Shown: one piece after another, positions 1 to 16,619 of the stretch | Layout of the letters: each line of letters starts with the position of its first letter | Numbering within the stretch: the stretch's first letter is position 1 | NCBI GenBank assembly: GCA_035562735.1 | Contig: DATMWB010000014.1 | Coordinates: 1 to 54,210, forward strand | DNA from: Candidatus Methanoperedens sp. | Lineage (GTDB): Bacteria > Patescibacteriota > Microgenomatia > UBA12405 | Length of the DNA stretch: 54,210 bases | Direction of reading: 5' to 3' | Notes under the pieces: model-generated | Databases searched by the model: none | The model's input: only the letters and a program-made list of their open reading frames with translations | What the model was told of the DNA's origin: nothing | Translations under genes and position numbers: made by a program

Positions 1-3000
1 TATGATGAGGCAATAAATTTTAAAGTTGAGAATTATAGAAAACCTGAATATTTTATTGAGGCAGAAAGCAAGGTAATGGAGGTGGTTAGAGGTGATGAGA
101 TTGATGTTGAGGTAAAGGGTGAGTATTTTTCTGGACAACCTTTAAGTTCTGAAGTGGTAAATTATAAAATATTTGCTAGTCAGGGTTTTGGTGATTATGA
201 CTACTATTACCCAATCAGTGCGAGTAATTTTTATCATGCTTGGGGTCAGAATGAGATTGAGACAGGTAGCGTAACTTTGGACAGTAAAGGTAAGGCAAAG
301 GTAAGTTTGGCAACAAACAAAAACGATTCTTTGGGGAAGTATCAGCTGTATTATGTTGAATTTTCATATGCCGATGCCACTGGGAATCAAAATTTAACGG
401 CGGTCAATGTGTTGGTTCGCTCGGGAGAGGTATCGATATACCGTGACAGTGATACAGGATATGGAGGAAAAACTAATCAGAAGTTGGATTTACCCCTGAT
501 TGTTAAGTCAAATCAAAAAGGGGTGAATTTGGCACAAAATATAGAAATTGGTGTGGCCAGGCGTTGGTGGCAAAAATATAATGATGAGAACAGTAAATAT
601 CCACAGTATCGTGAAGAGAAAGAAAATATGGGTAATTTTTTTGTAAACTCGGATAAGAGTGGTAAGGCAGTATTTAGTTTTACTCCAACAAAAGAGGGAA
701 GCTATGAACTGAATACAAAGATGACTGACAAACGAGGTAATGTGGTGGTGAAGACCTTTTATCTTTGGGTTTCTGATAAATATGCAAACTATAAGGGGGA
801 AAACAGTAATTCTACTATAAGGATCACTACTGACAAAAAGAAATATGTCCCTGGGGATAAAGCGATAATAAATATTAGTTCGGATATTCCAGATAGAGAT
901 ATTTATTTTGGAGTAGAAAGAGCGTATCAGGATCGATACCAAGTGGTACACATGAATGGAACTTCAGCTGATGTTGAATTGATGATAAGCGAACATGATA
1001 TGCCAAATATATTTTTGGTAGCAAAATCATTTGAAGTGACGGGACTTCAGGGAGACATTCAGAACGTTGAAGTTGATACCTCTAATAAAAAAATTACTTA
1101 TACAATTAATACTGATAAGAAACTTTATTCTCCAGGAGATGAAGTAACGGTGAATGTTGAGGCACGCGATAAAGCTGGCAATCCTGTTGAGAGTAACTTA
1201 GCGCTGTGGGCGGTTGATAAATCTCTATACTCTTTGGCTGACGTAAATTATGGGGACGTATTTGAAACTTTTTGGCAAAAAAGAGGTGATGAAACCCAAC
1301 AATCACATTCTCTTGAGGGTATTACAGTAATTGGAGGTGCTGAGAAGGGAGGATGTTTTTTGCCAGGGACAAAGGTACTTATGGCTAACAGTATTTCTAA
1401 GCCGATTGAAGATATTAAGGTAGGCGATAAGATTTTGACCCGGGTATCACCAAAGTCAGCAAAAATGATGAAGACAAAGGTGACGGCGTTACACAGTACA
1501 TTTACCATGGGGTATTTTGTGATTAATGCTGAATTAAAGTTGACGGGAAATCATTTATTAATGGTTAATGGTAAGTGGGCTGAGGCAAGAACAATTAGTA
1601 TTGGAGATGAATTGATTGGAATTGGAGATAAAAAAATAATCGTTGATTCGATAGAATTCTTGAATTTACCAAGCAAGGTATACAACCTCACGACTGATAC
1701 TTATCATAGTTTTTTTGCAGAGGGTGTCTATGTTCACAATGATAAGGGTGGGGGTACACGAGATAATTTTGCTGATACGGCATATTGGAATGCATCAATA
1801 AATACAGGAAGTGACGGCCGGACTCAGGTAAAATTCAAATTACCAGATAACCTGACAACGTGGGTTTTAACTACGATTGGGGCATCGAGTGATACCAAGG
1901 CTGGACAGGGTTTTACCGAGATAAAGGTAAGTAAAGATTTGGCAATTAGACCTGTGCTACCAAATGTGTTGGGTGAAAGGGACACGATTACTGTATCAGC
2001 TTTGGTCAATAATTATAGTGAGCTTGAAAGTAAGGCGACAGTAGAATTGGTAACTAATGCCGGTGAGGTTCTAAGCCCCTTGTCACAAAAGGTAGAGGTT
2101 TTAGCAAATGATTTTGTTCAGGTAGTATGGCAGATAAAGGTAGGTGAGGCAAAGGAAAAAGTAAAATTTGAGTTCAAAGTGAATGATGATAAGGGAAGGT
2201 CAGATGCTGTTGTCCAAGAGATAGAGGTACGTAGTATAGGATATTGGGAGCAAAAATCAGACTTTAGGAGTGGGTCATCAACTATTTCTTTGCAAGTGCC
2301 AAATATTGCTTACGATATCAATAAATCAAAGGTTGAAGTTGCTTTGAGTTCAACAGTAATGGGATCCCTACCAACGGCATTGAAGTATTTGATTAATTAT
2401 CCTTATGGCTGTGTTGAACAAACAACGAGTGCTTTGGTACCAAAGTTGATGGCACGGAAATACCCCGTTTTTTTTGCTGAAGCATTGAAATCTGAATCAA
2501 AGTATCAAGTTATGAGTGAAGGTTTTGACAAGTTAAGAGAATTGCAAAATTATGATGGTTCATGGAGCTGGTGGTGGAAGGGGAGTAAACCGGAGGCCTT
2601 TGTTTCGGCCTATGTATTTAGAATTTTAAATGAAGCAAAACTTTTGGGTATAAGTATTGATGAGGGGATGTATAACAAAGCCTTAAGATATCTATCAGAG
2701 AATTTTGATAATGTAGAGTTTGAAAATAAAATCATTAAGGCTTATGGATTGTCTTTTGCTACTGATTCAAAATATCATCGGGGGATAGAAGGTGATTTAT
2801 CAGCTGTGAGTGATGATTTTTTGGCAATGGCGGTGCAGGCAAACTTGACAGCAGGTATAAATGATTCCTCAAAAAGTGGTTTGGATCTTCTTCTAAAAAG
2901 AATGACAGTGACTGATAGTGGGGTCCATTGGAATGCAGGTAGTTTAGAGCGTTTTGGTTCGAAGGAAGCTAGTACTGCTTTGGCAATACAGGCTTTGGCG

Positions 3001-3984
3001 AAAAGTGGTGCCCATCAGGATGTGGCGGCAAAAGCAATAAATTATTTAATGAAGAATCGCTATCATGATTATTGGGGTAGTACTTACACAACTGCCCAGA
3101 CAATATTGGCGATTATTGATTATAGTTTGGCAGTGAAGGAGTCTGAAGCTAACATTTTGTATCGAGTAATGTCTGGCGGCGAACAATTGGCAAGTGGGAT
3201 GTTTAGTGGATCAAAAACTATACCCGCTTTAGTGAATATCGATTTGAAATTGTATGCCAAAAATAAGGAAATTAGGATTGAAAAAAAAGGTGAGGGGGAA
3301 TTATATACGACAGTTAACCAAAAATGGTGGATAAAAGATGCAAAATCACCCGAAGTATCCAATGGAGTTAAAATTGTAAAGACGATTGTAAATGTAAAGG
3401 GCGAGGCTTACAATTTTGTTCCGGGGGACTTGGTGAGAGTGAATTTAGATGTAAGCTTTCCTGATGGAGATAACATTGCTCGGGGATATGCGATTATAGA
3501 GGACCACCTACCTTCAGGATTGGTACCAGTAAATACTAGATTATTAAATGAATCTGACAATCAAAGTGATGATATTTATACGGAAAAGCAATTCTTAAAA
3601 GACGGAGTTATTATCCCTATTTTCTATTCTGGCAATACCCAGCGATTTAGTTACTTGGCAAGGATTATTAATGCTGGAACTTTTTATATGCCTCCGGCCT
3701 ATTATTCACAAATGTACTACCCTGATACTTGGGCGAGGTCAGAGTCATCGAGTTTTATGGTTGAAGATATGATAAGAATTAGTGCATTAAGTGGTATAAA
3801 AGATATCAAGTTAGATTTGAAGAATTACTTGACACTGAAGAATTTAGTCATTGTTATATTTTTTACAGCGATGTTGGGAGCTTTGGCTTTTTGGAAGAAA
3901 AAAAAGTTAAAGAGTATTAAAAATAATGAAGAAACTGAGGCGCCACCAAGAGACGAAACACCTGAATCGAACTCTAGTATTTAG
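1..3984 (+). CDS. Alpha-2-macroglobulin family protein, 5'-truncated by the window edge, with a C-terminal TM anchor
   Basis: Frame 1 is open from nt 1 (YDEAINFKVENYRKPEYFIE...), so the ATG at 76 is internal. Thioester motif GCVEQT lies in YPYGCVEQTTSAL (CVEQ = 2410-2421). Post-bait motif is RDNFADTAYWN. A C-terminal hydrophobic helix LVIVIFFTAMLGALAFW is followed by KKKK. Confidence 0.85.
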   Translation, partial: YDEAINFKVENYRKPEYFIEAESKVMEVVRGDEIDVEVKGEYFSGQPLSSEVVNYKIFASQGFGDYDYYYPISASNFYHAWGQNEIETGSVTLDSKGKAKVSLATNKNDSLGKYQLYYVEFSYADATGNQNLTAVNVLVRSGEVSIYRDSDTGYGGKTNQKLDLPLIVKSNQKGVNLAQNIEIGVARRWWQKYNDENSKYPQYREEKENMGNFFVNSDKSGKAVFSFTPTKEGSYELNTKMTDKRGNVVVKTFYLWVSDKYANYKGENSNSTIRITTDKKKYVPGDKAIINISSDIPDRDIYFGVERAYQDRYQVVHMNGTSADVELMISEHDMPNIFLVAKSFEVTGLQGDIQNVEVDTSNKKITYTINTDKKLYSPGDEVTVNVEARDKAGNPVESNLALWAVDKSLYSLADVNYGDVFETFWQKRGDETQQSHSLEGITVIGGAEKGGCFLPGTKVLMANSISKPIEDIKVGDKILTRVSPKSAKMMKTKVTALHSTFTMGYFVINAELKLTGNHLLMVNGKWAEARTISIGDELIGIGDKKIIVDSIEFLNLPSKVYNLTTDTYHSFFAEGVYVHNDKGGGTRDNFADTAYWNASINTGSDGRTQVKFKLPDNLTTWVLTTIGASSDTKAGQGFTEIKVSKDLAIRPVLPNVLGERDTITVSALVNNYSELESKATVELVTNAGEVLSPLSQKVEVLANDFVQVVWQIKVGEAKEKVKFEFKVNDDKGRSDAVVQEIEVRSIGYWEQKSDFRSGSSTISLQVPNIAYDINKSKVEVALSSTVMGSLPTALKYLINYPYGCVEQTTSALVPKLMARKYPVFFAEALKSESKYQVMSEGFDKLRELQNYDGSWSWWWKGSKPEAFVSAYVFRILNEAKLLGISIDEGMYNKALRYLSENFDNVEFENKIIKAYGLSFATDSKYHRGIEGDLSAVSDDFLAMAVQANLTAGINDSSKSGLDLLLKRMTVTDSGVHWNAGSLERFGSKEASTALAIQALAKSGAHQDVAAKAINYLMKNRYHDYWGSTYTTAQTILAIIDYSLAVKESEANILYRVMSGGEQLASGMFSGSKTIPALVNIDLKLYAKNKEIRIEKKGEGELYTTVNQKWWIKDAKSPEVSNGVKIVKTIVNVKGEAYNFVPGDLVRVNLDVSFPDGDNIARGYAIIEDHLPSGLVPVNTRLLNESDNQSDDIYTEKQFLKDGVIIPIFYSGNTQRFSYLARIINAGTFYMPPAYYSQMYYPDTWARSESSSFMVEDMIRISALSGIKDIKLDLKNYLTLKNLVIVIFFTAMLGALAFWKKKKLKSIKNNEETEAPPRDETPESNSSI
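1354..1740 (+). other. Hint / intein-like domain (129 aa) inserted in-frame in the A2M
   Basis: Starts with Cys (CFLPGTKVLM, block A). It has the TxxH block B (LTGNHLLMV), block F (VYNLTTDTYHSFFAEG) and terminal block G (VYVHN). The next residue is Asp, not Cys/Ser/Thr. The flanks are similar: ..EKGG before and DKGGG.. after. Confidence 0.8.
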
Positions 3985-9036: not shown

Positions 9037-12000
9037 ATGAAAAGTATTAAAAGAAATTGGTTTTTTGTGGTTTTGGTTTTATTTTTTGCTTTGATATTGG
9101 GAGAAAGAAAGGTTGTATTTGGAGTTGAAAGACCTCCAATACTTCAAGAGGAGAAAACTAGTATTGATAACAAAGCTTATGTTGCAGGAGAGGTGGTCGT
9201 TAAATTTAAAAAAGATAAAATAAATCTAAATTCAACTTTTTCTTTGACAAGTCAGGTAAGGAAATTGATATTTGATTTAACAAATGGTTATGAAACTGGA
9301 GACACAATAAAAAGTGGTAACATTGTTGTCCTAAAGATTGGTGAAGGTCAGCAGGTTGATGAGGTCATTAACACTTTAATGTCCGATCCAAATGTGGAAT
9401 ATGCTGAGCCGAATTATTATCAACAACTTACTACTTTGAGTTTAAATGATACATATAAGGATAATCTTTGGGGTTTGGATAACTTTGGACAGAGTATAAC
9501 TTTGGGAAGTGGATTAACGGCTATTGGGACTAGCGGTGCGGATATTGATGTTCGACGAGCTTGGGCTTTGACAACGGGGAGTACGGAAGTAGTAGTGGCG
9601 GTGATTGATTCTGGGGTGGCATATAATCATCCAGATTTGAGTGGGGTAATGTGGGATGGAACAAGTTGTAAAGATGAAGACGGAAATGCTTTAGGCGGAT
9701 GTTTACATGGTTATGATTATCGATACGATAGTGAAGACAATGATCCATTGCCAACTGATAGTTCTCACGGAACACATGTTGCGGGAACTATCGCTGCTGA
9801 GAGAAACAACAGTAAAGGTATTGCAGGAGTGGCCCCAAATGTGAAAATAATGGCTCTTAAATTTGATTTAAGCTCAACTGCGGCAGCAAAGGCAATTGAT
9901 TTTGCAACCCAAAATGGAGTAAAGATCATTAACGCAAGCTGGGGGGGTAATTCTCCCTCATCAACAATTTATGACGCTATAGTCAGGTTTGAAACGGCTG
10001 GAGGTATTTTTGTGGCTGCAGCAGGAAATGAAGGAGAAGATAATGAATCGGTTCATCATTATCCATCTGATTATACTTTGAGTAACATTGTGGCAGTGGC
10101 GGCAACAGATCAAAATGATTTATTGGCTGATTTTTCAAATTTTGGTAGTACCTCAGTTGATGTGGCGGCACCGGGTGTAGATATATATAGTACGATTGAT
10201 GAGGCGGCGTTAATCGATTACGACTTTAATTCTATTGGTGGTGGATCTCTTCCTTCAACTTGGACTTCTGATCTTGGTGCTAGTTGGGGAGCATATAATT
10301 TAGGTGGTACTGGTACAGTGAATATGGCAATTTATGGAGATTTAAATTATCCCTATGTTGAAGGGGTTGATTCTTATGTGACATCAGATACTGTAAATTT
10401 GTCAACAGTATCAAATGCAAAGTTTAGTTTTTCCGCGGCGTGTGATACAGAAAATACAGATCCTTTGCTTGGGGGTGATTTTATGGCTCTTGAAGTTAGT
10501 GGTAATGGAACAACCTTTACTGAGATAGCAAGATGGAATGAATATTCTCTAACTGCATTAGGGGCTGTGCCTGGGTATTATTATACTTATGAAGTTGGTA
10601 TAAGTGCTTCAGATTTGACTAGTAATTTTAAATATAGATTGAGATGGACGACGGATACAGATGGAAGTTATGGAGGAGGAGATGGCTGTAAGGTTGATAA
10701 CTTTGAAATTATTACTTATACGGATGGTTCAGATGAGTTGTATGACTTTTATCAGGGAACTTCGATGGCGGCTCCTCATGTAGCTGGTTTGGCTGGATAT
10801 TTATGGTCAATAGCTCCGTCAGCTTCAATGAGCGATATTATTAGCAATATATTAGGTAATGGAGATACTTTAGCGTCACTGGCTGGTAAGACGTCGACAG
10901 GTAGAAGAATTAATGCTTATAACTCTGTAGTAAGTTTGGGGGTTACTGCTCCAGCCGGTCCATCGGTGACAGGTTTGAGTAATGATGCAGTGGCTGCCAA
11001 GAGTAAAACATTTACTTGGAGCTCAGCAACCCCATCCACTGACGGCTATCGTTTTTCTATTGATCAGTCAGTATCTGGCGTGCCTACTGGAAGTTATAGT
11101 GTGGGTCTAACTGGGACTACATATTCAAGTGGTGACGGAACTTTTTATATTCATGTTCAGGCACAAGACGCTGATTTAGCTGAAGGGGCGGTATCAACAG
11201 CCTCATTTATTTTGGATAATACGGGTCCTGAGGCAAGCGTAACTAGTAGTGCTACAAATTTGTTTATCTTATCCTTTGGTGAGACATTGTATAGCGATGT
11301 TGGTGCAACCTTTGCCATTGGAACTGATGTGGCTAGTAGATTTGCCGTAAGTTCAGAAATTGGAATTTCTGAAGCTCTTGTGGCTGGTAGTGAGAGTATA
11401 AGTATAGGTGTAACTGGAACACCACTGGCTGGGACGAATGTAAATTTACTTTCAGGAACAGCAACAAATAATTTTTATGATTATTTAACAAATGCAGGTG
11501 GAACTTTGGCTGTATTTTATGATGGTGATGCATGGCAGGCAAATCCAACCGCTTTAAATGTGGCGACAAGTCATTTTCCAGATTTAATTACCACAGGCCA
11601 ACTGACTTTGGGAGGAAGTGCTCCTGAGACGGCTACGTCAATTACAGCAGCAAATAATTTAACATTAAATATTGGGGGTACTGGGGCAAACAGTAGTGTT
11701 GGCTTGACACTGGGGACTATTATTACTGAACTAAATGATGCGGTATTTAACGCAAATCTAATATCTGGAACGCAAGTTGATGTGTCAACAATATCCGGTC
11801 TTGAGGTGGGTTACACAGCGGCTGGAGCGATTCAGTGGGGTATTACTGGAACAACACTGAAATTTAGTCAACCAATAATTGTAAGTATTTATCTTGGATC
11901 GGCCTATGATTCACAAACTTTATATGTTTATCGTTCCGAATCTTTGTCAGTAGGTTGGACTAGTACTGGGTTATCGTCACCAACCTGTGTAGTTAGTAGT

Positions 12001-12534
12001 GGTTATTGCTCTTTTGCAGCGACTCAAGCGTCTTATTTCTTGGCGGCATCGTCAGCAACGCCGACCCCAACTCCAAGTCCAACTTCTGCACCAACATCTG
12101 CACCGAGTAATGATAGTGGAAGTAACAATCAATCATCTGGGCCACCGGAAGCACCAAGATGCAACGACAGAATTCCAATATTTGCACCTGATTTGTTTAG
12201 AATTACTACTTCAAAAGGTAGTGCTAAGATTATTTTTACTCCGGTTAATGAACAAATTACGGGATATGCCGTCATGTATGGTCATAAGAAAGGTGATGAA
12301 AGGTATGCGGCTATATTTAGTCCCATAAATAACAATGAAGGGGAGCAGAGTTTTACTGTTAATAAGTTAAACCCAAAGATTACGTATTATTTTAAAGTTA
12401 CAGCATTCAACGGTTGTGTGTCTGGACCTTGGTCAGATTGGATTCCAGCAAAACCAGACAGGAAAAGAGAGATACATAAATACAAAACAGTAATAAAAAA
12501 TAAGGTTAAGACTTTAGTTAATAGATTTCTTTAA
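9037..12534 (+). CDS. Secreted S8 (subtilisin-like) serine peptidase with an inserted domain and a long C-terminal extension
   Basis: Signal peptide. Catalytic motifs VAVIDSGV (Asp), HGTHVAGTIAA (His), AAAGNEG (oxyanion Asn) and GTSMAAPHVAG (Ser). An insert of about 180 aa sits between APGVDIYS and GTSMAAPH. A PT-rich linker (ATPTPTPSPTSAPTSAPS) precedes an FN3-like end. Confidence 0.9.
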   Translation: MKSIKRNWFFVVLVLFFALILGERKVVFGVERPPILQEEKTSIDNKAYVAGEVVVKFKKDKINLNSTFSLTSQVRKLIFDLTNGYETGDTIKSGNIVVLKIGEGQQVDEVINTLMSDPNVEYAEPNYYQQLTTLSLNDTYKDNLWGLDNFGQSITLGSGLTAIGTSGADIDVRRAWALTTGSTEVVVAVIDSGVAYNHPDLSGVMWDGTSCKDEDGNALGGCLHGYDYRYDSEDNDPLPTDSSHGTHVAGTIAAERNNSKGIAGVAPNVKIMALKFDLSSTAAAKAIDFATQNGVKIINASWGGNSPSSTIYDAIVRFETAGGIFVAAAGNEGEDNESVHHYPSDYTLSNIVAVAATDQNDLLADFSNFGSTSVDVAAPGVDIYSTIDEAALIDYDFNSIGGGSLPSTWTSDLGASWGAYNLGGTGTVNMAIYGDLNYPYVEGVDSYVTSDTVNLSTVSNAKFSFSAACDTENTDPLLGGDFMALEVSGNGTTFTEIARWNEYSLTALGAVPGYYYTYEVGISASDLTSNFKYRLRWTTDTDGSYGGGDGCKVDNFEIITYTDGSDELYDFYQGTSMAAPHVAGLAGYLWSIAPSASMSDIISNILGNGDTLASLAGKTSTGRRINAYNSVVSLGVTAPAGPSVTGLSNDAVAAKSKTFTWSSATPSTDGYRFSIDQSVSGVPTGSYSVGLTGTTYSSGDGTFYIHVQAQDADLAEGAVSTASFILDNTGPEASVTSSATNLFILSFGETLYSDVGATFAIGTDVASRFAVSSEIGISEALVAGSESISIGVTGTPLAGTNVNLLSGTATNNFYDYLTNAGGTLAVFYDGDAWQANPTALNVATSHFPDLITTGQLTLGGSAPETATSITAANNLTLNIGGTGANSSVGLTLGTIITELNDAVFNANLISGTQVDVSTISGLEVGYTAAGAIQWGITGTTLKFSQPIIVSIYLGSAYDSQTLYVYRSESLSVGWTSTGLSSPTCVVSSGYCSFAATQASYFLAASSATPTPTPSPTSAPTSAPSNDSGSNNQSSGPPEAPRCNDRIPIFAPDLFRITTSKGSAKIIFTPVNEQITGYAVMYGHKKGDERYAAIFSPINNNEGEQSFTVNKLNPKITYYFKVTAFNGCVSGPWSDWIPAKPDRKREIHKYKTVIKNKVKTLVNRFL

Positions 12535-12858
12535 GGCTGGCAGGTTTTTGTTGAGGCACTGTTGAAATTGGGTGTTAGGTGTAAAGGCACATTTGCCGTT
12601 CTTCTGTCTTTCACAGACGGCATATTTATAACATTCGTATTCATCTCTCCATTCACAGGTACTAATTCCACTTTCTCCTGCTTGTTCATCGACGCACAAT
12701 TGACCGCTACATCCACCTTTTATGCAACCATTGTTATTTTGAGCATTATTTGGTGAAGTTGGTTTTTTGAGGGTAAAGATGATTAAAGTGGAAATAATTA
12801 TTAAAAAAACGGTAACAAGAGTAATTAGAAAAAGATTTTGCCTTTTTTGTTTATTCAT
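12514..12858 (-). CDS. Small membrane-anchored or secreted protein with eight cysteines
   Basis: N-terminal TM/signal helix, then CIKGGCSGQLC...STCEWRDEYECYKYAVCERQKNGKCAF...QQC (8 Cys). From memory it resembles the domain annotated as eight-cysteine-cluster. Confidence 0.5.
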   Translation of the reverse strand: MNKQKRQNLFLITLVTVFLIIISTLIIFTLKKPTSPNNAQNNNGCIKGGCSGQLCVDEQAGESGISTCEWRDEYECYKYAVCERQKNGKCAFTPNTQFQQCLNKNLPALKKSIN

Positions 12859-12884
12859 AAGTTAGTTTAGCTTAAAAAAGCGGT

Positions 12885-13076
12885 TTATTTAAATATAAAC
12901 AACTTTTCGATAGTTGTATTCAAAATATTTGCGACATCATGGGCTAATTTAAGCGATGGCATATATTTATTTTGTTCAAGGTAAAGGATTGTTTCACGGC
13001 GGACGTTGACCATTTTTGCTAATTGAGCTTGGGTAAGATTGTTGATAATGCGATAGGCTTTTATTTTATTTTTCAT
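12885..13076 (-). CDS. XRE-family helix-turn-helix transcriptional regulator (63 aa)
   Basis: [39 protein letters not shown] is a typical Cro/C1 HTH of the short YozG-like type. Confidence 0.85.
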
Positions 13077-13078
13077 GG

Positions 13079-13121
13079 GTTAGAATTTTCTAACAATATA
13101 ATGTTAAAAGTTTCTAACATT
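13079..13121. promoter_or_regulatory. Two inverted repeats sharing TTTCTAACA, candidate XRE operator
   Basis: GTTAGAAttTTCTAAC at 13079-13094 and AATGTTAaaagtttcTAACATT at 13100-13121, immediately upstream of the XRE start codon on the minus strand. Confidence 0.35.
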
Positions 13122-13130
13122 GGTGTCAAG

Positions 13131-13171
13131 AAGATAAAAAAACAAAAAGCCCTCTGATAAAACAGAGGGCT
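13131..13171 (-). terminator. Rho-independent terminator downstream of the RRM gene
   Basis: 9-bp stem agccctctg/cagagggct (13148-13156 with 13163-13171), loop ataaaa. On the minus strand it is followed by tttttgttttttt. Confidence 0.7.
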
Positions 13172-13193
13172 TATGATTAGTCAATATTATTGA

Positions 13194-13487
13194 TTAATAG
13201 CGATTTCTGGAATAATTGTCACGTCGAGGTGGACGATCTTCCATTGGTTTAGCTTCGTTGACCTTAACGGTTCGACCGTCGAGTTCTTTGCCATCCCACA
13301 TATTGATAGCTGCTTGAGCTTCTTCTTCGGTGGACATTTCAACAAAACCGAATCCTTTGGATTGACCAGAGAATTTATCTTTGATAATTACTGCGGAGAT
13401 AACGCTTCCCGCTTGGGCGAAAGATGCACCCAAAGTGTCTTCAGTGGTTTGAAAAGACAAGCCACCGACATAGAGTTTCTTATTCAT
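13194..13487 (-). CDS. RRM-domain RNA-binding protein
   Basis: RNP-2 KLYVGGL and RNP-1 KGFGFVEM motifs, with a basic R-rich tail. Confidence 0.9.
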   Translation of the reverse strand: MNKKLYVGGLSFQTTEDTLGASFAQAGSVISAVIIKDKFSGQSKGFGFVEMSTEEEAQAAINMWDGKELDGRTVKVNEAKPMEDRPPRRDNYSRNRY

Positions 13488-13610
13488 TTTTTACTAACAA
13501 AATACTAAGAGGACAGTGCAGTATAAGGTAAAAGGGGGGAAATAGATAGCAATAGTATTGTTTTGGTATTTTTTTTTATATCAAATAGGTGCTTATTACT
13601 ACTAAATAGG

Positions 13611-13639
13611 TTGACTTTTATCCTATATATTAGTAATAT
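13611..13639 (+). promoter_or_regulatory. Sigma70-like promoter TTGACT-17 nt-TAATAT
   Basis: TTGACT at 13611-13616, a 17-nt spacer, TAATAT at 13634-13639. It sits about 200 nt upstream of the 13844 ORF. Confidence 0.5.
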
Positions 13640-13645
13640 ATGTTG

Positions 13646-13843
13646 TTTTCCACACAGGAGATTCAAAGCGAATCTGCATTTGTTGTGTGAAAGTCGATAG
13701 GGCGCGGCTCTATCGATCACTCTTTAAAAATCGGTTTTTCAAATCAAAGAAAGGAGGTGATAACAGGAAAATTGTGGTAATTAACCTAACCTCGTAAATC
13801 TAAAGGTTAGGGCCATTCATCGGATAGTAAGGGAGAAAAAAAC
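13646..13843 (+). promoter_or_regulatory. Long structured 5' leader of unknown class
   Basis: Nested hairpin cacaca/tgtgtg (13651-13656 with 13684-13689) encloses agattc/gaatct (13659-13664 with 13670-13675). Further hairpins are tcgatag/ctatcga (13694-13700 with 13710-13716) and cctaacct/aggttagg (13785-13792 with 13804-13811). An orphan perfect SD, AAGGAGGTGA (13751-13760), has no start codon at proper spacing. Confidence 0.35.
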
Positions 13844-15388
13844 ATGAAGACCAAGATTAGGTTTTCAAAGGTAATGAGTTTGTTTTTGCTGTTAGGCTTG
13901 ATGTTGAGCGCGTTGAACGTGGGAACTGTGTCAGCGCACCACTCAACAATTACCGGAAAGGTTGTCTGTCAAGCTGATGGAAATCAGAGAATTGATTGGA
14001 CAATCAAAAATTCTGAATCTGGGAAGATCGAGACTGTCACAGCACTGAGCCGATCAATCGGTCTGTCTGTACCATTCGACATTCCAAAGAGTGGAAAAGC
14101 GACTGGGTCGGAAGTATTCTCTGGTTCGGCAACTAGTGTCATCACACTGAGTGTGACTGCTACTTGGCCTGGATATGGACCGGTGACAAATACTGGCTCT
14201 GTAACCTTGCCTGGTGGATGTCAGCCACCTCAACCCCAGAAGGTATATGTGTGCAAGTACGTAGGCACACCTGGGGTAAATGAAAGGTTGCAGGATGGAA
14301 ACAATCCGATTGAAGTTTCGATAAACTCCATTCCGGATTATCAGGGTGTTGGCTCATATTTTGGTGATGCTCATTCGAGATCCTATGTTTTGGCAACCGT
14401 CCCCCAAAATCCTGAACCGACAAGAGCTGACTGTCCACAACCGCCTGTCTATGGCTGCATGGATGAAACGGCGCTGAACTATAACCCATTGGCAACAGTG
14501 GATGACGGTTCATGTCAATATCCTCCGCCTCCAGTACCTGGCTGCATGGATGAAACGGCGCTGAACTATAACCCATTGGCAACAGTGGATGACGGTTCAT
14601 GTCAATATCCTCCTGAGGAAGTCCTTGGTTGTACTGATCCCGAAGCAACTAATTTCAATCCCTTGGCGACAAAGGATGATGGGTCGTGTCAGTACACTCC
14701 TGAACCTCCGGAGCCGCCGGTCGTCGTTAGGGTCAAACCAGTATGCACTGAACTAGGTTGTTTTGGACCCAATATTGATGACACACCGTCTGACGGGGAA
14801 TGTGTGGCAACTGTTATCACAGCTGATGACGTTTGTCATTTTGACCCCAAATCATGGTCCTGTGTCTCAGGTCATCCACAAGTGGTGCTGTATTGCCTAA
14901 ATGCAGATAGTGCCGTCCGAATGGGTGGGGTTTATTTTGAGACATCTCCGGTGACCAATGCTGATCAACCAGGTTGGTCGATTCTTTACACACCCTTGGG
15001 TGCATATCGAGACTATTGGTTCTGGCTGAAAGCAGGTCTGAATCCAGAAATGGATGATGTTGAGTTCTGGACAAATTGGCAGGATAAGATTTTCCTGACC
15101 AAGTCAGCACCCCAATATCACGGCGCTGCCTGTTCATTACCGGTTTTATTTACGGTTGACGGTGGTTACATCGAACTTCTTCCTGGACAGAACTCCTGGG
15201 AGGCAATAAAGTTCGTGGTCGAACGACAGTGGGGTCTTTCAGAAGACGCAGATAGCGTCTTGTATCATCGGGCATGGGGTTACGTGGATCAGTACTTCAA
15301 GGACAATCCCTTGACTGATCCAGTACGCTTATGGAAACACAACAAGGTTTTGGCTCCGGCCAGACCTGATTGGGTTCCAGAGCCCTAA
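13844..15388 (+). CDS. Secreted protein of unknown function with three CxDxxAxNYNPxAxxDDGSCQY modules, in a GC-rich island
   Basis: Signal peptide ending VSA|HH and SD-like aagggag 8 nt before the ATG. The motif GC(M/T)D..A.N(Y/F)NPLAT.DDGSCQY is repeated three times. GC content is visibly higher than in all neighbouring genes. Confidence 0.7.
   Translation: MKTKIRFSKVMSLFLLLGLMLSALNVGTVSAHHSTITGKVVCQADGNQRIDWTIKNSESGKIETVTALSRSIGLSVPFDIPKSGKATGSEVFSGSATSVITLSVTATWPGYGPVTNTGSVTLPGGCQPPQPQKVYVCKYVGTPGVNERLQDGNNPIEVSINSIPDYQGVGSYFGDAHSRSYVLATVPQNPEPTRADCPQPPVYGCMDETALNYNPLATVDDGSCQYPPPPVPGCMDETALNYNPLATVDDGSCQYPPEEVLGCTDPEATNFNPLATKDDGSCQYTPEPPEPPVVVRVKPVCTELGCFGPNIDDTPSDGECVATVITADDVCHFDPKSWSCVSGHPQVVLYCLNADSAVRMGGVYFETSPVTNADQPGWSILYTPLGAYRDYWFWLKAGLNPEMDDVEFWTNWQDKIFLTKSAPQYHGAACSLPVLFTVDGGYIELLPGQNSWEAIKFVVERQWGLSEDADSVLYHRAWGYVDQYFKDNPLTDPVRLWKHNKVLAPARPDWVPEP
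14453..14700 (+). repeat. 3 x 87-bp in-frame tandem repeat (29-aa modules)
   Basis: 14453-14526 and 14540-14613 are identical 74-nt cores. A diverged third copy begins at 14627. The period is 87 bp. Confidence 0.9.
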
Positions 15389-15421
15389 GCCCACAAAACT
15401 TTTATGATTTGAAACAACCGG

Positions 15422-15484
15422 CCCGGGGAGGAGCAATAAAAAGCCTCCCCGGGATCCCCGGGAAAATTTTGGTTTTTCCGGGGA
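15422..15484 (+). terminator. Two consecutive GC-rich hairpins after the island ORF (possible terminator or 3'-end protection)
   Basis: 10-bp stem cccggggagg/cctccccggg (15422-15431 with 15444-15453). 7-bp stem tccccgg/ccgggga (15455-15461 with 15478-15484), whose loop contains ttttggttttt. There is no classical trailing U-tract. Confidence 0.4.
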
Positions 15485-15486
15485 AT

Positions 15487-15544
15487 TAGCGTATTCCGCC
15501 AAGCGGGACTGATGAGTATCTCCTAAGAGGGGAACGAAACGCTA
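15487..15544 (+). ncRNA. Type III hammerhead self-cleaving ribozyme motif
   Basis: The sequence reads UAGCGU-A|UUCCGC-CAA-GCGGGA-CUGAUGA-GUAUCUCC-UAAGA-GGGGAAC-GAAA-CGCUA. The invariant CUGAUGA (15509-15515) and GAAA (15536-15539) are present. The A15.1:U16.1 pair and the GUA cleavage triplet are present. Stems I, II and III are all closed by complementary sequence. Confidence 0.75.
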
Positions 15545-15554
15545 CAATAATACG

Positions 15555-16619
15555 ATGATAAAAATTGAGGATTATGATTACGAATTGCCACAAGAGTTAA
15601 TTGCTCAGGAGGCATTGGAAAAAAGAGATGAATGCCGACTTTTAATAGTAAATAGACTCACCCCCAACCCCTCCCTTAAAAGTGAGGGGAAAAATAATAT
15701 TAGTAATAATATTGGAAGTATTAGTGAAAAGAAGTTTTTTGAAATAGCGGATGAATTAGGGGAAAATGATGTATTAGTGTTGAATGAAAGCCGGGTGTTT
15801 CCAGCAAGATTAATTGGAAAAAAGGATAGTGGGGGAAGGGTAGAACTGCTATTGCTCAACAGACTAAATGAATTTGAATGGGAAGCCATATGTCGTCCTG
15901 GGTTAAAAAATGGTAAGCAATTATTTTTTGATGGTTTGAAGGCTGAAGTTATTGGAAATTTAGAAGAAACTATAAAGGTCAAATTTGATTTTAAAGGTGA
16001 TTTTTGGAAAATTTTAGAAAGCATTGGTAAAACGCCAATTCCACCATATATTCATAATGATAAAGAGAATGTGATTCGACGTGACTATCAGACGGTGTAC
16101 GCGGCGAATTATGGATCGGCAGCGGCACCCACAGCAGGATTGCATTTTACCGACGGTTTACTAAAGAAATTGCTGGAAAATGGAGTTCAAATAGAGAAAG
16201 TAAATTTAAATGTAGGACTAGGGACCTTTAAACCAATTAATGAAAAAAATTTGAAAACAGGGAAGTTGCATTTGGAATTTTTAGAAATAAAAACAGAAGT
16301 GGCCCAAAGATTAAATATGGCTAAAAAACAAGGAAAAAGAATTATTGCAGTTGGAACAACTTCAGTAAGGGTCTTGGAAGCGATGAGCGATATAAGGGGA
16401 AAATTAAAATCGGGGAGCGGAGAAACGGATATCTTCATATACCCTCCTTATAAATTTAAATTTGTAGATTCTTTAATTACTAATTTTCATTTGCCTAAGA
16501 GCAGTCTTTTAATGTTGATTGCAGCTATGATTGGGGAGGAATGGCGAGAGGTGTACAAATTTGCTATAAAAAAACGATTTAGGTTTTTCAGTTTTGGTGA
16601 TGCAACGTGGATCAGATAA
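15555..16619 (+). CDS. queA: S-adenosylmethionine:tRNA ribosyltransferase-isomerase
   Basis: DYDYELPQELIAQEALEKRDECRLL, NESRVFPARL, PIPPYI, YQTVYA, AAPTAGLHFT, AVGTTSVR, TNFHLPKSSLLML, RFFSFGDA. Confidence 0.92.
   Translation: MIKIEDYDYELPQELIAQEALEKRDECRLLIVNRLTPNPSLKSEGKNNISNNIGSISEKKFFEIADELGENDVLVLNESRVFPARLIGKKDSGGRVELLLLNRLNEFEWEAICRPGLKNGKQLFFDGLKAEVIGNLEETIKVKFDFKGDFWKILESIGKTPIPPYIHNDKENVIRRDYQTVYAANYGSAAAPTAGLHFTDGLLKKLLENGVQIEKVNLNVGLGTFKPINEKNLKTGKLHLEFLEIKTEVAQRLNMAKKQGKRIIAVGTTSVRVLEAMSDIRGKLKSGSGETDIFIYPPYKFKFVDSLITNFHLPKSSLLMLIAAMIGEEWREVYKFAIKKRFRFFSFGDATWIR

What the first reader, a model, noticed from the sequence alone, without database searches (positions are those of the whole stretch)
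13611..15545. GC-rich single-gene cassette embedded in an AT-rich genome
From about 13650 to 15545 the composition changes abruptly. Hand-counted 60-nt lines inside the ORF are roughly half G+C, against about a quarter to a third in the flanking genes. The segment forms a self-contained unit: a near-consensus promoter (TTGACT-17-TAATAT), a structured leader of about 200 nt, one secreted protein, two GC-rich hairpins and a hammerhead. The GC-rich gene also throws long antisense ORFs (14160-14648, 14817-15137), which is typical of foreign high-GC DNA. I found no integrase, tRNA or flanking direct repeat. If it was horizontally acquired, the mechanism is not obvious, and the ribozyme may be part of the mobile or insulating unit.
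Basis: partly seen in the sequence, partly recalled or inferred. Interest (0 to 1): 0.7.

Follow-up and report, generated by a model that had tools for sequence, protein, structure and literature searches.

The report
Ribozyme-ended slot for swappable secreted-protein gene
In an AT-rich uncultured bacterium (Candidatus Shapirobacteria), a GC-rich secreted-protein gene sits in a conserved 2-kb unit of promoter, folded leader, two hairpins and a hammerhead ribozyme, and relatives carry an unrelated GC-rich gene in the same unit or no unit at all.

Summary
Gene X (13844-15388) has 48% GC and 43.5% GC3, against 34% and 30% for the other 42 ORFs. It is the strongest tetranucleotide and codon-usage outlier in the window. 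Five independent assemblies reproduce both junctions, so it is not a chimera.

About 2.0 kb (13532-15543) is missing from at least five related genomes, where the RRM gene and queA lie 64-66 bp apart. A sister species has the same promoter, the same first ~110 nt of leader, both hairpins and the hammerhead. Its ORF (Y) shows no significant similarity to X and is also GC-rich. One 66-residue domain of X is 60-80% identical to proteins encoded in 63-66% GC actinobacterial DNA.

I read the unit as a conserved expression chassis whose ORF body is exchanged by recombination. The hairpins lack U-tracts, so the hammerhead probably makes the mRNA 3' end and separates it from queA. Ribozyme activity is inferred, not shown. 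A conserved 16-bp complementarity between the two UTRs borders the variable part, but my energy controls support it only weakly. The function of the protein is unknown.

The parts
13532..15543 (+). Whole unit (about 2.0 kb) that is present here and absent from empty-site relatives
   Evidence: BLASTN against L004 aligns window 12889-13531 and 15554-15637 with only 19 bp between them in L004. L034-L038 match L007 only up to the same two edges. RRM and queA are 64-66 bp apart in L004, L034, L037 and L038.
13611..13639 (+). Promoter-like site TTGACT-17-TAATAT, with a predicted transcription start near 13646
   Evidence: Found by the consensus scan. Conserved as TTAACT-17-TAATAT in L001 and TTGACT-17-TAAAAT in L007. 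The start site is inferred.
13646..13843 (+). 5' leader. The first ~110 nt are conserved between the X and Y loci and hold helices P1 (13651-13657/13683-13689), P1b (13659-13664/13670-13675) and P2 (13694-13703/13707-13716). The rest is lineage-specific and includes hairpin 13785-13792/13804-13811.
   Evidence: Across three distinct sequences, 23 pairs are 98.6% paired, against 30-44% when the partner is slid. Five pairs change on both sides. Two further variants (L027-type, L028) keep the pairing through wobble changes. MFE z=-2.4. No Rfam family matches.
13730..13746 (+). 5' arm AUCGGUUUUUCAAAUCA of a possible long-range helix, which is also the innermost conserved element on the left
   Evidence: Inverted repeat I3. 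Identical in the window and L007; L001 carries one extra T in the T-run. It pairs with 15405-15421 in full-length folds of three transcripts. Controls show that predicted end-to-end pairing is common.
13750..13761 (+). Strong Shine-Dalgarno-like AAAGGAGGUGAU with no start codon at a working distance; purpose unknown
   Evidence: Read from the sequence. It is weaker in L007, AGAGAGGAUG.
13844..15388 (+). Gene X, 514 aa. Signal peptide 13844-13936, N-domain 13937-14218, actinobacterial-type VCKYVGTPG domain 14219-14443, three 2-Cys repeats 14444-14698, and a Cys-rich C-domain 14699-15385.
   Evidence: ORF. dN/dS is about 0.05 against L001. Only the N-domain and repeats are shared with P0078. The middle domain is 60-80% identical to proteins from 63-66% GC DNA. 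The repeats match thousands of proteins. The C-domain has 2 close and 5 remote relatives. Tandem 87-nt repeats lie at 14434-14607.
15405..15421 (+). 3' arm UGAUUUGAAACAACCGG, which is also the first conserved element after the stop codon
   Evidence: The core GAUUUGAAA is invariant in all four lineages and the other positions vary (L002 AAGATTTGAAATAACCG, L007 ATGATTTGAAATAAACCGG).
15422..15484 (+). Two GC-rich hairpins, hp1 (15422-15431/15444-15453) and hp2 (15455-15467/15472-15484), neither followed by a U-tract
   Evidence: Local fold z=-3.7. The terminator scan does not call them on the + strand, although it does call the canonical hairpin plus U-tract terminator of the RRM gene at 13147-13172. 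Both hairpins are kept with different sequence in L002 and L007.
15487..15545 (+). Type III hammerhead ribozyme candidate with predicted cleavage between A15493 and U15494. Stem III is 15487-15492/15539-15544, stem I 15494-15499/15503-15508, core CUGAUGA 15509-15515, stem II 15516-15535, and GAAA 15536-15539.
   Evidence: RF00008 at 25.5 bits, E=0.015, below the gathering score. L002 scores 23.6 bits. The core is intact and 94.7% of pair cells are paired, against 41-49% when slid, but only one pair changes on both sides. The hammerhead fold is the local MFE. It is found only in filled sites.
15543..15548 (+). -10-like TACAAT 6 nt upstream of the queA ATG (15555), overlapping the end of the hammerhead
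   Evidence: TAMAAT lies 5-8 nt upstream of the queA ATG in filled and empty genomes alike. The idea that queA mRNA is leaderless is an inference.
13194..13487 (-). Left flank, an RRM-type RNA-binding protein gene transcribed divergently
   Evidence: Pfam RRM_1, 3e-20. It is 95-100% identical in relatives.
15555..16619 (+). Right flank, queA (S-adenosylmethionine:tRNA ribosyltransferase-isomerase)
   Evidence: Pfam Queuosine_synth, 7.7e-114.

Best explanation
The RRM-queA spacer of one Shapirobacteria clade holds a conserved expression chassis of about 2 kb. From left to right it has a sigma-70-type promoter, a leader that begins with two conserved stem-loops, an ORF for a secreted Cys-rich multidomain protein, two GC-rich hairpins without U-tracts, and a type III hammerhead that ends 10 nt before the queA start codon.

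Shown: the non-coding parts are conserved between species while the ORF body differs (X here, Y in the L007 species). Both ORFs are compositionally foreign to their genomes. The whole unit is missing in other relatives.

Inferred mechanism: ORF bodies, or domains within them, enter by homologous recombination in the conserved flanks from a GC-richer gene pool. At least one domain of X traces to Actinobacteria. Transcription from the strong promoter reads through the hairpins, which are not terminators. The hammerhead cuts after A15493. The X mRNA then ends in two hairpins plus a 9-nt tail with a 2',3'-cyclic phosphate, and the 5' stem-loops protect its other end, giving a stable and well-expressed message. 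The downstream piece carries a 5'-OH and the ribozyme body, so queA is uncoupled from the strong promoter. queA may use its own -10 element as a leaderless mRNA.

A conserved 16-bp complementarity between the leader and the 3' UTR may close the mRNA into a panhandle. That step is the weakest part of the model.
For: Composition.

Empty sites in L004, L005, L034, L037 and L038.

Same chassis with another ORF in L007 and L039-L043. The promoter, P1, P2, the AAAAAUCGGUUUUUCAAAUCAAAGAA stretch, both hairpins and the hammerhead are conserved. X against Y gives BLASTP E=0.036 and hhalign probability 7.8%. Y has 48% GC and 47% GC3 in a 37% GC genome.

Leader helices with 5 compensatory pairs.

Hammerhead core and fold.

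The hairpins are not terminator-like, although this genome does use canonical terminators.

X is a real gene under purifying selection, dN/dS about 0.05.

Foreign signal. The middle domain is 60-80% identical to proteins encoded in 63-66% GC DNA with GC3 of 81-86%. X and Y are enriched in G-ending codons (0.50 against 0.25). The probably highly expressed RRM, rpsB and tsf genes are not, so this is not translational selection.

Recombination. X groups the window with L001 (95% aa) and puts L002 at 68%. queA groups L008 with L002 (86%) and puts the window at 79-80%. dS is 0.12 for RRM, 0.5-0.7 for X and 1.4 for queA between the same two strains.

Precedent. Bacterial hammerheads flank single genes and cut polycistronic RNA in vitro (PMC3088659). 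5'/3' UTR pairing is known for hbs and icaR (PMC5737220, PMC3868564).
Against: No cleavage or transcript data exist. The hammerhead is below Rfam's gathering score, and its covariation is not significant (1 compensatory pair, 173 of 500 shuffles as good).

Only two ORF types and four chassis lineages are known, so repeated exchange rests on few events.

No donor of a whole ORF was found.

The GC3 of X stays at 44-50% in lineages with saturated synonymous sites. That fits maintained GC-richness at least as well as recent import.

The X and Y N-domains may be distantly homologous, sharing a VTATW...C.PP motif, which would favour divergence in place.

The panhandle is weak. The core of each arm never varies, so there is no covariation. 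MFE folds of 13 of 18 control genes also pair their ends, with runs of up to 13 stacked pairs. The cognate duplex beats only 97.8% of non-cognate flank pairs.
Confidence: 0.5

Rival explanations
1. This is a resident, fast-evolving surface-protein gene and not foreign DNA. The slot is ancestral and was lost several times. X and Y are extremely diverged alleles of one gene family. The GC-richness is maintained in place, either by GC-biased gene conversion at a recombination hotspot or by selection on mRNA stability or structure.
For: GC3 stays at 44-50% in the window, L001 and L002 although synonymous sites between the window and L002 are saturated (pS 0.92). X and Y have parallel architecture: a signal peptide, a beta-rich N-domain bounded by Cys, three short 2-Cys repeats and a Cys-rich C-domain. 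They show marginal similarity around VTATW. No full-length donor was found. The neighbouring S8 peptidase is also hypervariable.
Against: The middle domain is 60-80% identical to actinobacterial proteins and is not seen in Y or P0078. The GC-normalised tetranucleotide pattern is also atypical. The X and queA trees disagree. The chassis is absent in five lineages that are interleaved with filled ones in a poorly resolved queA tree.
Confidence: 0.25
2. This is a discrete mobile cassette. The 16-17 bp imperfect inverted repeats (13730-13746 and 15405-15421) that border the variable segment act as DNA recombination sites for a recombinase encoded elsewhere, and ORF cassettes are exchanged site-specifically.
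For: The arms are inverted repeats that sit exactly at the edges of the X/Y-variable segment, and their core is conserved.
Against: No integrase, transposase or tRNA lies in the neighbourhood. The window and the fetched loci hold no second copy of the arms, the leader or the 3' module. I found no target-site duplication and no attC-like core sites on inspecting the sequence. Every known copy sits at the same RRM-queA site. The unit missing from empty sites is larger than the IR-bounded segment.
Confidence: 0.08
3. The hammerhead-like motif does nothing useful. The hairpins end transcription in this organism, and the motif is a conserved stretch of the queA upstream region or a relic.
For: The score is below Rfam's threshold. 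The bare core pattern is expected about 1.4 times by chance in the window. Covariation is not significant. The L001/L008 lineage carries G at the cleavage position and a C-A mismatch in stem I, so the motif can decay.
Against: All core positions, G10.1-C11.1, A15.1-U16.1 and a non-G at position 17 are intact in three of four lineages. The 62-nt block is 94% identical where the flanks are 60-80%. Stem I changes keep the pairing (U-G, C-G, U-A; C-G to U-A). The motif is absent upstream of queA in every empty-site genome. The hairpins lack the U-tract that this genome's own terminators have.
Confidence: 0.15
4. This is an assembly chimera that joins DNA of a GC-richer organism into an AT-rich contig.
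For: Only the abrupt change in composition.
Against: Both junctions recur in independent assemblies from JGI and Logan, including a contig 100% identical across the left junction. Conserved regulatory RNA spans the junctions.
Confidence: 0.01

Closest known systems
Bacterial hammerhead ribozymes flanking single genes (Perreault et al. 2011, PMC3088659); Rfam RF00008 Hammerhead_3
   Same: It has the canonical core, three helices and type III topology. It sits at a gene boundary inside a probable co-transcript, next to a gene whose identity is not constant. That is the context in which hammerheads were proposed to cut long transcripts into single-gene mRNAs.
   Different: It is chromosomal, in a Candidate Phyla Radiation bacterium, and not in a prophage. 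It is a single ribozyme, not a flanking pair or triplet. It is fixed next to a housekeeping gene and combined with conserved hairpins and a conserved leader. It scores below the Rfam threshold. A full-text search found no paper that mentions both hammerhead ribozymes and the candidate phyla radiation.
5'/3' UTR base-pairing in bacterial mRNAs: B. subtilis hbs (14 bp, PMC5737220) and S. aureus icaR (PMC3868564)
   Same: A 16-bp complementarity links the leader and the 3' UTR of the same mRNA. Its length is similar to the hbs interaction, which protects against RNase Y.
   Different: Here it is only predicted. It does not cover the working Shine-Dalgarno sequence as in icaR. It is conserved around ORFs with no significant similarity to each other. 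My controls show that the energy-based support is weak.
Genomic islets and allelic replacement of surface-protein loci between conserved flanks (own knowledge: capsule, O-antigen and pilin loci of naturally competent bacteria)
   Same: The locus has atypical composition, varies between presence and absence among relatives, holds different gene content between conserved flanks, and shows tree incongruence with a flank.
   Different: The conserved flanks are non-coding RNA elements that belong to the unit itself, not neighbouring housekeeping genes. It is a single gene with no integrase or tRNA.
Integron gene cassettes (ORF plus attC hairpin)
   Same: A single ORF is followed by imperfect palindromes, and different ORFs occupy the same site.
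   Different: The unit carries its own promoter and leader. It has no integrase, no array, no RYYYAAC/GTTRRRY core sites, and no second copy anywhere.
Synthetic ribozyme insulators such as RiboJ (own knowledge: Lou et al. 2012)
   Same: A type III hammerhead between a promoter-driven upstream region and the next gene uncouples the two by cleavage and leaves the ribozyme body on the downstream RNA.
   Different: This one is natural. It is placed after an ORF, not between a promoter and a ribosome-binding site. The downstream gene has no evident Shine-Dalgarno sequence.

Membership tests
Hammerhead ribozyme, type III | Conserved core C3-U4-G5-A6-N7-G8-A9 ... G12-A13-A14 | tested here: met
   CUGAUGA at 15509-15515 and GAAA at 15536-15539. 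Both are invariant in four lineages.
Hammerhead ribozyme, type III | Three helices around the core, with stems I and II closed by loops and stem III open, plus G10.1-C11.1 and A15.1-U16.1 | tested here: met
   Nineteen pairs are 94.7% paired, against 41-49% when slid. The fold is the local MFE. Stem III has only 4 bp in L002 and L007. Covariation is not significant.
Hammerhead ribozyme, type III | Cleavage-site nucleotide 17 is not G | tested here: met
   It is A15493 in the window, L002 and L007. It is G in L001/L008, which I predict to be inactive.
Hammerhead ribozyme, type III | Reaches the Rfam RF00008 gathering score | tested here: not met
   25.5 bits in the window and 23.6 bits in L002, against 48.5.
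Hammerhead ribozyme, type III | Self-cleavage giving 2',3'-cyclic phosphate and 5'-OH ends | not testable with these tools
   This needs in vitro transcription or RNA-end sequencing.
Horizontally acquired genomic island | Composition and codon usage deviate from the host genome | tested here: met
Horizontally acquired genomic island | Absent from the same site in related genomes | tested here: met
   L004, L005, L034, L037 and L038 have empty sites.
Horizontally acquired genomic island | Mobility signatures: integrase, tRNA target, flanking direct repeats | tested here: not met
   No tRNA and no integrase among the neighbours. The short direct repeats look like chance matches.
Horizontally acquired genomic island | An identifiable donor lineage | tested here: inconclusive
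   Only the 66-residue middle domain has close relatives, in 63-66% GC Actinobacteria-type DNA. No full-length relative exists outside the clade.
Integron gene cassette | An attC site with core and inverse-core sequences, and an integron integrase nearby | tested here: not met
   Reading 15404-15554 shows no RYYYAAC ... GTTRRRY pair. There is no integrase.
Intrinsic (Rho-independent) terminator, for the two hairpins | A GC-rich hairpin immediately followed by a U-tract | tested here: not met
   The scan does not call them on the + strand, while it does call the RRM terminator at 13147-13172.
mRNA 5'/3' UTR interaction (hbs and icaR type) | Complementary UTR segments that are conserved and pair in vivo | tested here: inconclusive
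   The helix is conserved and predicted with probability near 1.0 in three transcripts. The core of each arm never varies, and end pairing is also predicted for 13 of 18 control genes. The cognate duplex falls in the best 2.2% of control pairs.

The most novel reading that the evidence does not exclude
A lineage of ultra-small Candidate Phyla Radiation bacteria keeps a natural plug-and-play expression cassette. It has a promoter, 5' stabiliser stem-loops, UTR arms that close the message into a panhandle, 3' hairpins and a hammerhead that acts as a ribozyme terminator and insulator. Secreted-protein ORFs with no significant similarity to each other, partly taken from GC-rich neighbours or hosts such as Actinobacteria, are swapped into it by recombination. 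If true, this would give a chromosomal bacterial hammerhead a defined physiological job. It would also provide a small, testable model for how these epibiont-like bacteria refresh their surface proteins.
Probability: 0.3. Interest if true: 0.8.

Novelty: new variant of a known kind. Interest (0 to 1): 0.64.

Why it matters
Hundreds of hammerheads are known in bacteria, but their function is still unclear (PMC3088659). Here one sits in a small, conserved and interpretable context. It lies between a strongly promoted, variable secreted-protein gene and a housekeeping gene, downstream of hairpins that cannot terminate transcription. A natural variant with G at the cleavage position is available as a control. 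That makes the idea of a ribozyme serving as mRNA 3'-end maker and insulator directly testable with a 180-nt transcript and with existing metatranscriptomes.

The locus also shows how streamlined, AT-rich Candidate Phyla Radiation genomes can change a surface protein. The regulatory RNA frame stays and the ORF is replaced, including a domain that matches Actinobacteria. This may bear on host or partner recognition in organisms that cannot yet be cultured.

Tried and rejected
Searches and predictions that gave nothing:
- Rfam at gathering level over the whole window found nothing. An E-value scan of 13400-15700 found only the sub-threshold hammerhead, so the leader belongs to no known family.
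- Pfam, NCBIfam and PHROGs on X and Y gave only a spurious sub-threshold PsaN hit on the repeats.
- A PDB sequence search on X found nothing.
- The AlphaFold2 model of X has mean pLDDT 62.8, and only the middle domain is confident. Foldseek against the PDB gave no hit below E=0.08. Protein function stays unknown.
- The full-length homology search was swamped by the 25-residue repeat, so I searched the domains separately.
- Viral contigs hold no hammerhead of this type and no relatives of the X C-domain or of Y.
- No second copy of the leader or the 3' module exists in the window or the fetched loci. The CCCCGGG motif occurs only in the hairpins.

Ideas I tested and dropped or weakened:
- Translational selection as the cause of the high GC3. 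The RRM, rpsB and tsf genes show a different codon pattern.
- A sharp recombination breakpoint between the window and the L001 strain. Identity varies gene by gene, and only the X/queA tree conflict and the dS differences remain as evidence.
- Thermodynamic proof of the panhandle. The first shuffle test looked strong, but proper controls weakened it.
- X/Y N-domain homology was not significant.

Dead ends:
- RRM cluster members P0176, P0188 and P0181 led to genomes with other synteny or empty sites.
- One cluster look-up was wasted on wrong coordinates.
Full report
1. THE OBSERVATION

The window is 34.6% GC. The ORF at 13844-15388 (X, 514 aa) is 48.2% GC. All three codon positions are raised. 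GC1/GC2/GC3 are 0.54/0.47/0.435, against means of 0.40/0.32/0.297 for the other 42 ORFs. The GC3 sd is 0.034 and the sd of total GC is 0.028.

The 1.5-kb window 14001-15500 is the top tetranucleotide outlier (z=5.8). X has the most atypical synonymous codon usage of all 43 ORFs. After normalising for base composition, its tetranucleotide pattern correlates with the rest of the window at r=0.47, against 0.70 +/- 0.05 for ordinary chunks.

- the promoter-like TTGACT-17-TAATAT at 13611-13639;
- a leader that folds better than shuffles;
- two GC-rich hairpins and a hammerhead-like motif;
- long antisense ORFs;
- no tRNA.

It is not a chimera. A Logan contig (L012) is 100% identical to window 12542-14481. 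Contigs from two JGI samples and several other runs span the same junctions.

2. THE ORGANISM AND THE SITE

queA, the gene immediately downstream, is 73% identical by tblastn (77% in a global alignment) to that of Candidatus Shapirobacteria GW2011_GWF2_37_20, a member of the Candidate Phyla Radiation. The 90% cluster of the RRM protein carries Shapirobacteria and Woesebacteria names.

In that reference genome (L004) the divergent RRM gene and queA are separated by 66 bp. Window 13532-15553 replaces 19 bp of L004. L005, L034, L037 and L038 also have nothing upstream of queA except a short spacer.

The unit of about 2.0 kb is therefore present or absent among relatives whose queA proteins are 72-86% identical to one another.

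3. THE SAME FRAME HOLDS A DIFFERENT GENE

I scanned metagenomes with a hammerhead pattern and looked up RRM cluster members. This recovered a second species: L007 and L039-L043, on contigs of up to 228 kb. Its gene order is RRM, then a 1.45-kb insert, then queA, rpsB and tsf.

The insert in that species has these parts in common with the window:
- the same promoter (TTGACT-17-TAAAAT);
- the same first ~110 nt of leader;
- the same short element after the stop codon;
- two hairpins;
- the same hammerhead.

Its ORF (Y, about 336 aa from the probable GUG start) is not detectably related to X. BLASTP gives E=0.036 on a 51-residue stretch, and hhalign gives probability 7.8%. Y is also GC-rich, with 47.9% GC and GC3 of 0.47 in DNA of about 37% GC.

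X and Y share a layout: a signal peptide, a beta-rich N-domain bounded by Cys, three short 2-Cys repeats and a Cys-rich C-domain. Both show 2 or 3 repeat copies in different assemblies. Short-read contigs tend to break in the X repeats, so copy numbers are uncertain.

4. WHAT X IS MADE OF

The full-length search is dominated by the 25-residue repeat GC.D..A.NYNPLAT.DDGSC.Y, which occurs in thousands of proteins.
- The N-domain and the repeats are shared with P0078, a protein with a sortase-like C-terminal signal in a 44% GC contig.
- The middle domain (KVYVCKYVGTPG...) is 60-80% identical to about 45 proteins. One is annotated as Actinobacteria. Two that I located are encoded in DNA of 63-66% GC with GC3 of 0.81-0.86.
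- The C-domain is nearly an orphan, with two close relatives at the same locus and five remote ones.

Family libraries, the PDB sequence search and a structure model gave no function. X is a real gene, because dN/dS against the L001 allele is about 0.05.

5. THE RNA PARTS

Leader. Helices P1, P1b and P2 are 98.6% paired across three distinct sequences, against 30-44% when the partner is slid. Five pairs change on both sides. Two more variants keep the pairing.

Hairpins. hp1 and hp2 are preserved with different sequence in L002 and L007. Neither has a U-tract, and the scan does not call them terminators. It does call the classical terminator of the RRM gene in the same region.

Hammerhead. The core, G10.1-C11.1, A15.1-U16.1 and A17 are intact. 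Stems I and II are closed and stem III is open, which is the type III topology. The predicted cut is at 15493/15494. It is the local MFE fold, and the 62-nt block is 94% identical among four lineages.

The hammerhead evidence has limits. Its Rfam score is 25.5 bits, below the threshold of 48.5. Covariation is limited to stem I and is not significant. The bare core pattern alone is expected by chance.

The L001/L008 lineage has G at position 17 and a C-A mismatch in stem I, seen in two assemblies. Its X allele has an in-frame TAG in one assembly. This may be a decaying copy, but the TAG lies in the repeat region, which assembles poorly.

6. A POSSIBLE PANHANDLE, AND ITS CONTROLS

The innermost conserved elements on the two sides are complementary: 13730-13746 (AUCGGUUUUUCAAAUCA) and 15405-15421 (UGAUUUGAAACAACCGG). 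They form 10+6 bp with a one-base bulge.

Full-length folds of the predicted mRNAs of the window, L001 and L007 place this helix in the MFE, with pair probabilities near 1.

My controls weaken this. Thirteen of 18 ordinary genes folded with equivalent flanks also pair their ends in the MFE, with runs of up to 13 stacked pairs. The cognate duplex is better than only 97.8% of non-cognate flank pairs. The core of each arm never varies, so covariation cannot be used.

What remains is the conservation of both arms and their position at the edges of the variable segment. This is compatible with an RNA helix, as in hbs or icaR. It is equally compatible with a role at the DNA level, or with independent functions for each arm.

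7. FOREIGN ORIGIN OR MAINTAINED GC?

For foreign origin:
- the actinobacterial-type domain;
- the GC-independent tetranucleotide deviation;
- general G+C enrichment at synonymous sites. G-ending two-fold codons are 0.50 against 0.25, and four-fold G is 0.22-0.28 against 0.13. The RRM, rpsB and tsf genes do not show this;
- tree conflict. X groups the window with L001 (95% aa) and puts L002 at 68%. queA groups L008 with L002 (86%) and puts the window at 79-80%. dS between the same two strains is 0.12 for RRM, 0.5-0.7 for X and 1.4 for queA.

Against a simple recent import:
- no full-length relative exists outside the clade;
- GC3 is still 0.44-0.50 in alleles whose synonymous sites are saturated. 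This suggests either repeated exchange with a GC-richer pool or active maintenance, for example by GC-biased gene conversion at a recombination hotspot.

I cannot separate these two readings with the present data.

8. MOST LIKELY MECHANISM

Shown: a conserved non-coding frame, a variable GC-rich ORF, and presence or absence among relatives.

Inferred:
- ORF bodies or domains are replaced by homologous recombination in the conserved ends.
- Transcription from the strong promoter runs through hairpins that cannot terminate it.
- The type III hammerhead cuts and leaves almost no scar on the upstream RNA. The X mRNA therefore ends in two hairpins with a 2',3'-cyclic phosphate, and its 5' end starts with stem-loops. 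From general knowledge, both features stabilise bacterial mRNAs.
- The downstream RNA carries a 5'-OH and the ribozyme body.

queA has no Shine-Dalgarno sequence. It has a TAMAAT hexamer 5-8 nt before its ATG in filled and empty genomes alike. It may therefore be made as a leaderless mRNA from its own promoter, and the ribozyme would protect that arrangement from read-through.

This matches the role proposed for hammerheads that flank single genes in prophages (PMC3088659). It also resembles synthetic ribozyme insulators (own knowledge). My confidence in the overall model is about 0.5.

9. COMPARISON AND NOVELTY

Each ingredient is known: genomic islets, bacterial hammerheads at gene borders, stabilising UTR structures and 5'/3' UTR pairing. 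The new elements are:
- the combination of these parts;
- its occurrence in a Candidate Phyla Radiation chromosome. A full-text search found no paper that mentions both hammerhead ribozymes and this radiation;
- conservation of the RNA frame around ORFs with no significant similarity to each other.

I classify it as a new variant of a known kind. It fails the tests for an integron cassette, an intrinsic terminator and an integrase-borne island (see the membership table).

10. VERDICT

The interest lies less in the GC content than in the conserved, ribozyme-ended frame and its exchangeable ORF. Ribozyme activity, transcript ends, the panhandle and the function of the protein remain untested.

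Noticed in passing
window 76-3984: A 1302-aa alpha-2-macroglobulin-like protein has a Hint/PT-HINT (intein-like) domain inserted at about residues 427-556. The same architecture is seen in relatives L047 and L048.
   Followed up: partly
window 9037-12858: An S8 peptidase (1165 aa) and a small Heavy_Cys_CGP protein are absent from L004. The peptidase core is only 51-70% nt identical between the window and the L010 strain, while its flanks are 85-90% identical. This is a second hypervariable secreted-protein locus about 700 bp (one HTH gene and the RRM gene) from the slot.
   Followed up: partly
window 15543-15554; L002, L004, L005, L007 upstream of queA: A -10-like TAMAAT hexamer lies 5-8 nt before the queA ATG, and no Shine-Dalgarno sequence is present, in filled and empty genomes alike. 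This suggests a leaderless queA mRNA.
   Followed up: no
L001 2249-2312, L008 (same strain); L001 about 1340-1350: In this lineage the hammerhead has G at cleavage position 17 and a C-A mismatch in stem I, seen in two assemblies. X has one repeat fewer and an in-frame TAG, seen in one assembly. This may be a decaying copy or an assembly error in the repeats.
   Followed up: partly
window 14434-14698; L039 against L040/L041: Both X and Y have 2 or 3 copies of their short Cys repeats in different assemblies. Short-read contigs L012, L027 and L030 all end at window 14481, inside the 87-nt tandem repeat, so copy number may be limited by assembly.
   Followed up: partly
window 15655-15720: queA carries a lineage-specific insert near its N-terminus (LTPNPSLKSEGKNNISNNIGS) with a hairpin-like CTCACCCCCAACCCCTCCCTTAAAAGTGAGGGG. 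The relatives have different inserts there.
   Followed up: no
window 13407-13421 and 15494-15508: Hammerhead stem I is 13/15 complementary to a + strand stretch inside the RRM gene, so it matches the sense strand of the RRM mRNA. This is probably chance.
   Followed up: no
window 13750-13761: A near-perfect Shine-Dalgarno sequence AAAGGAGGUGAU lies in the leader about 85 nt upstream of the real start, with no start codon at a working distance, directly after the conserved 5' arm. Its purpose is unknown.
   Followed up: no
L014 (JGI 3300072490, 73.6-kb contig): The actinobacterial-type VCKYVGTPG-domain protein P0138 sits among about 20 small ORFs on one strand that have almost no family hits, in 63% GC DNA. 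The contig looks phage- or plasmid-like, but PHROGs did not confirm this.
   Followed up: partly
window 19000-52300: A large block of cell-envelope glycan genes is present: GT2, two Wzy_C/O-antigen-ligase-like proteins, a carbamoyltransferase, GH39 and a B12-radical SAM protein. The whole 54 kb has no tRNA and no Rfam hit at gathering level.
   Followed up: no
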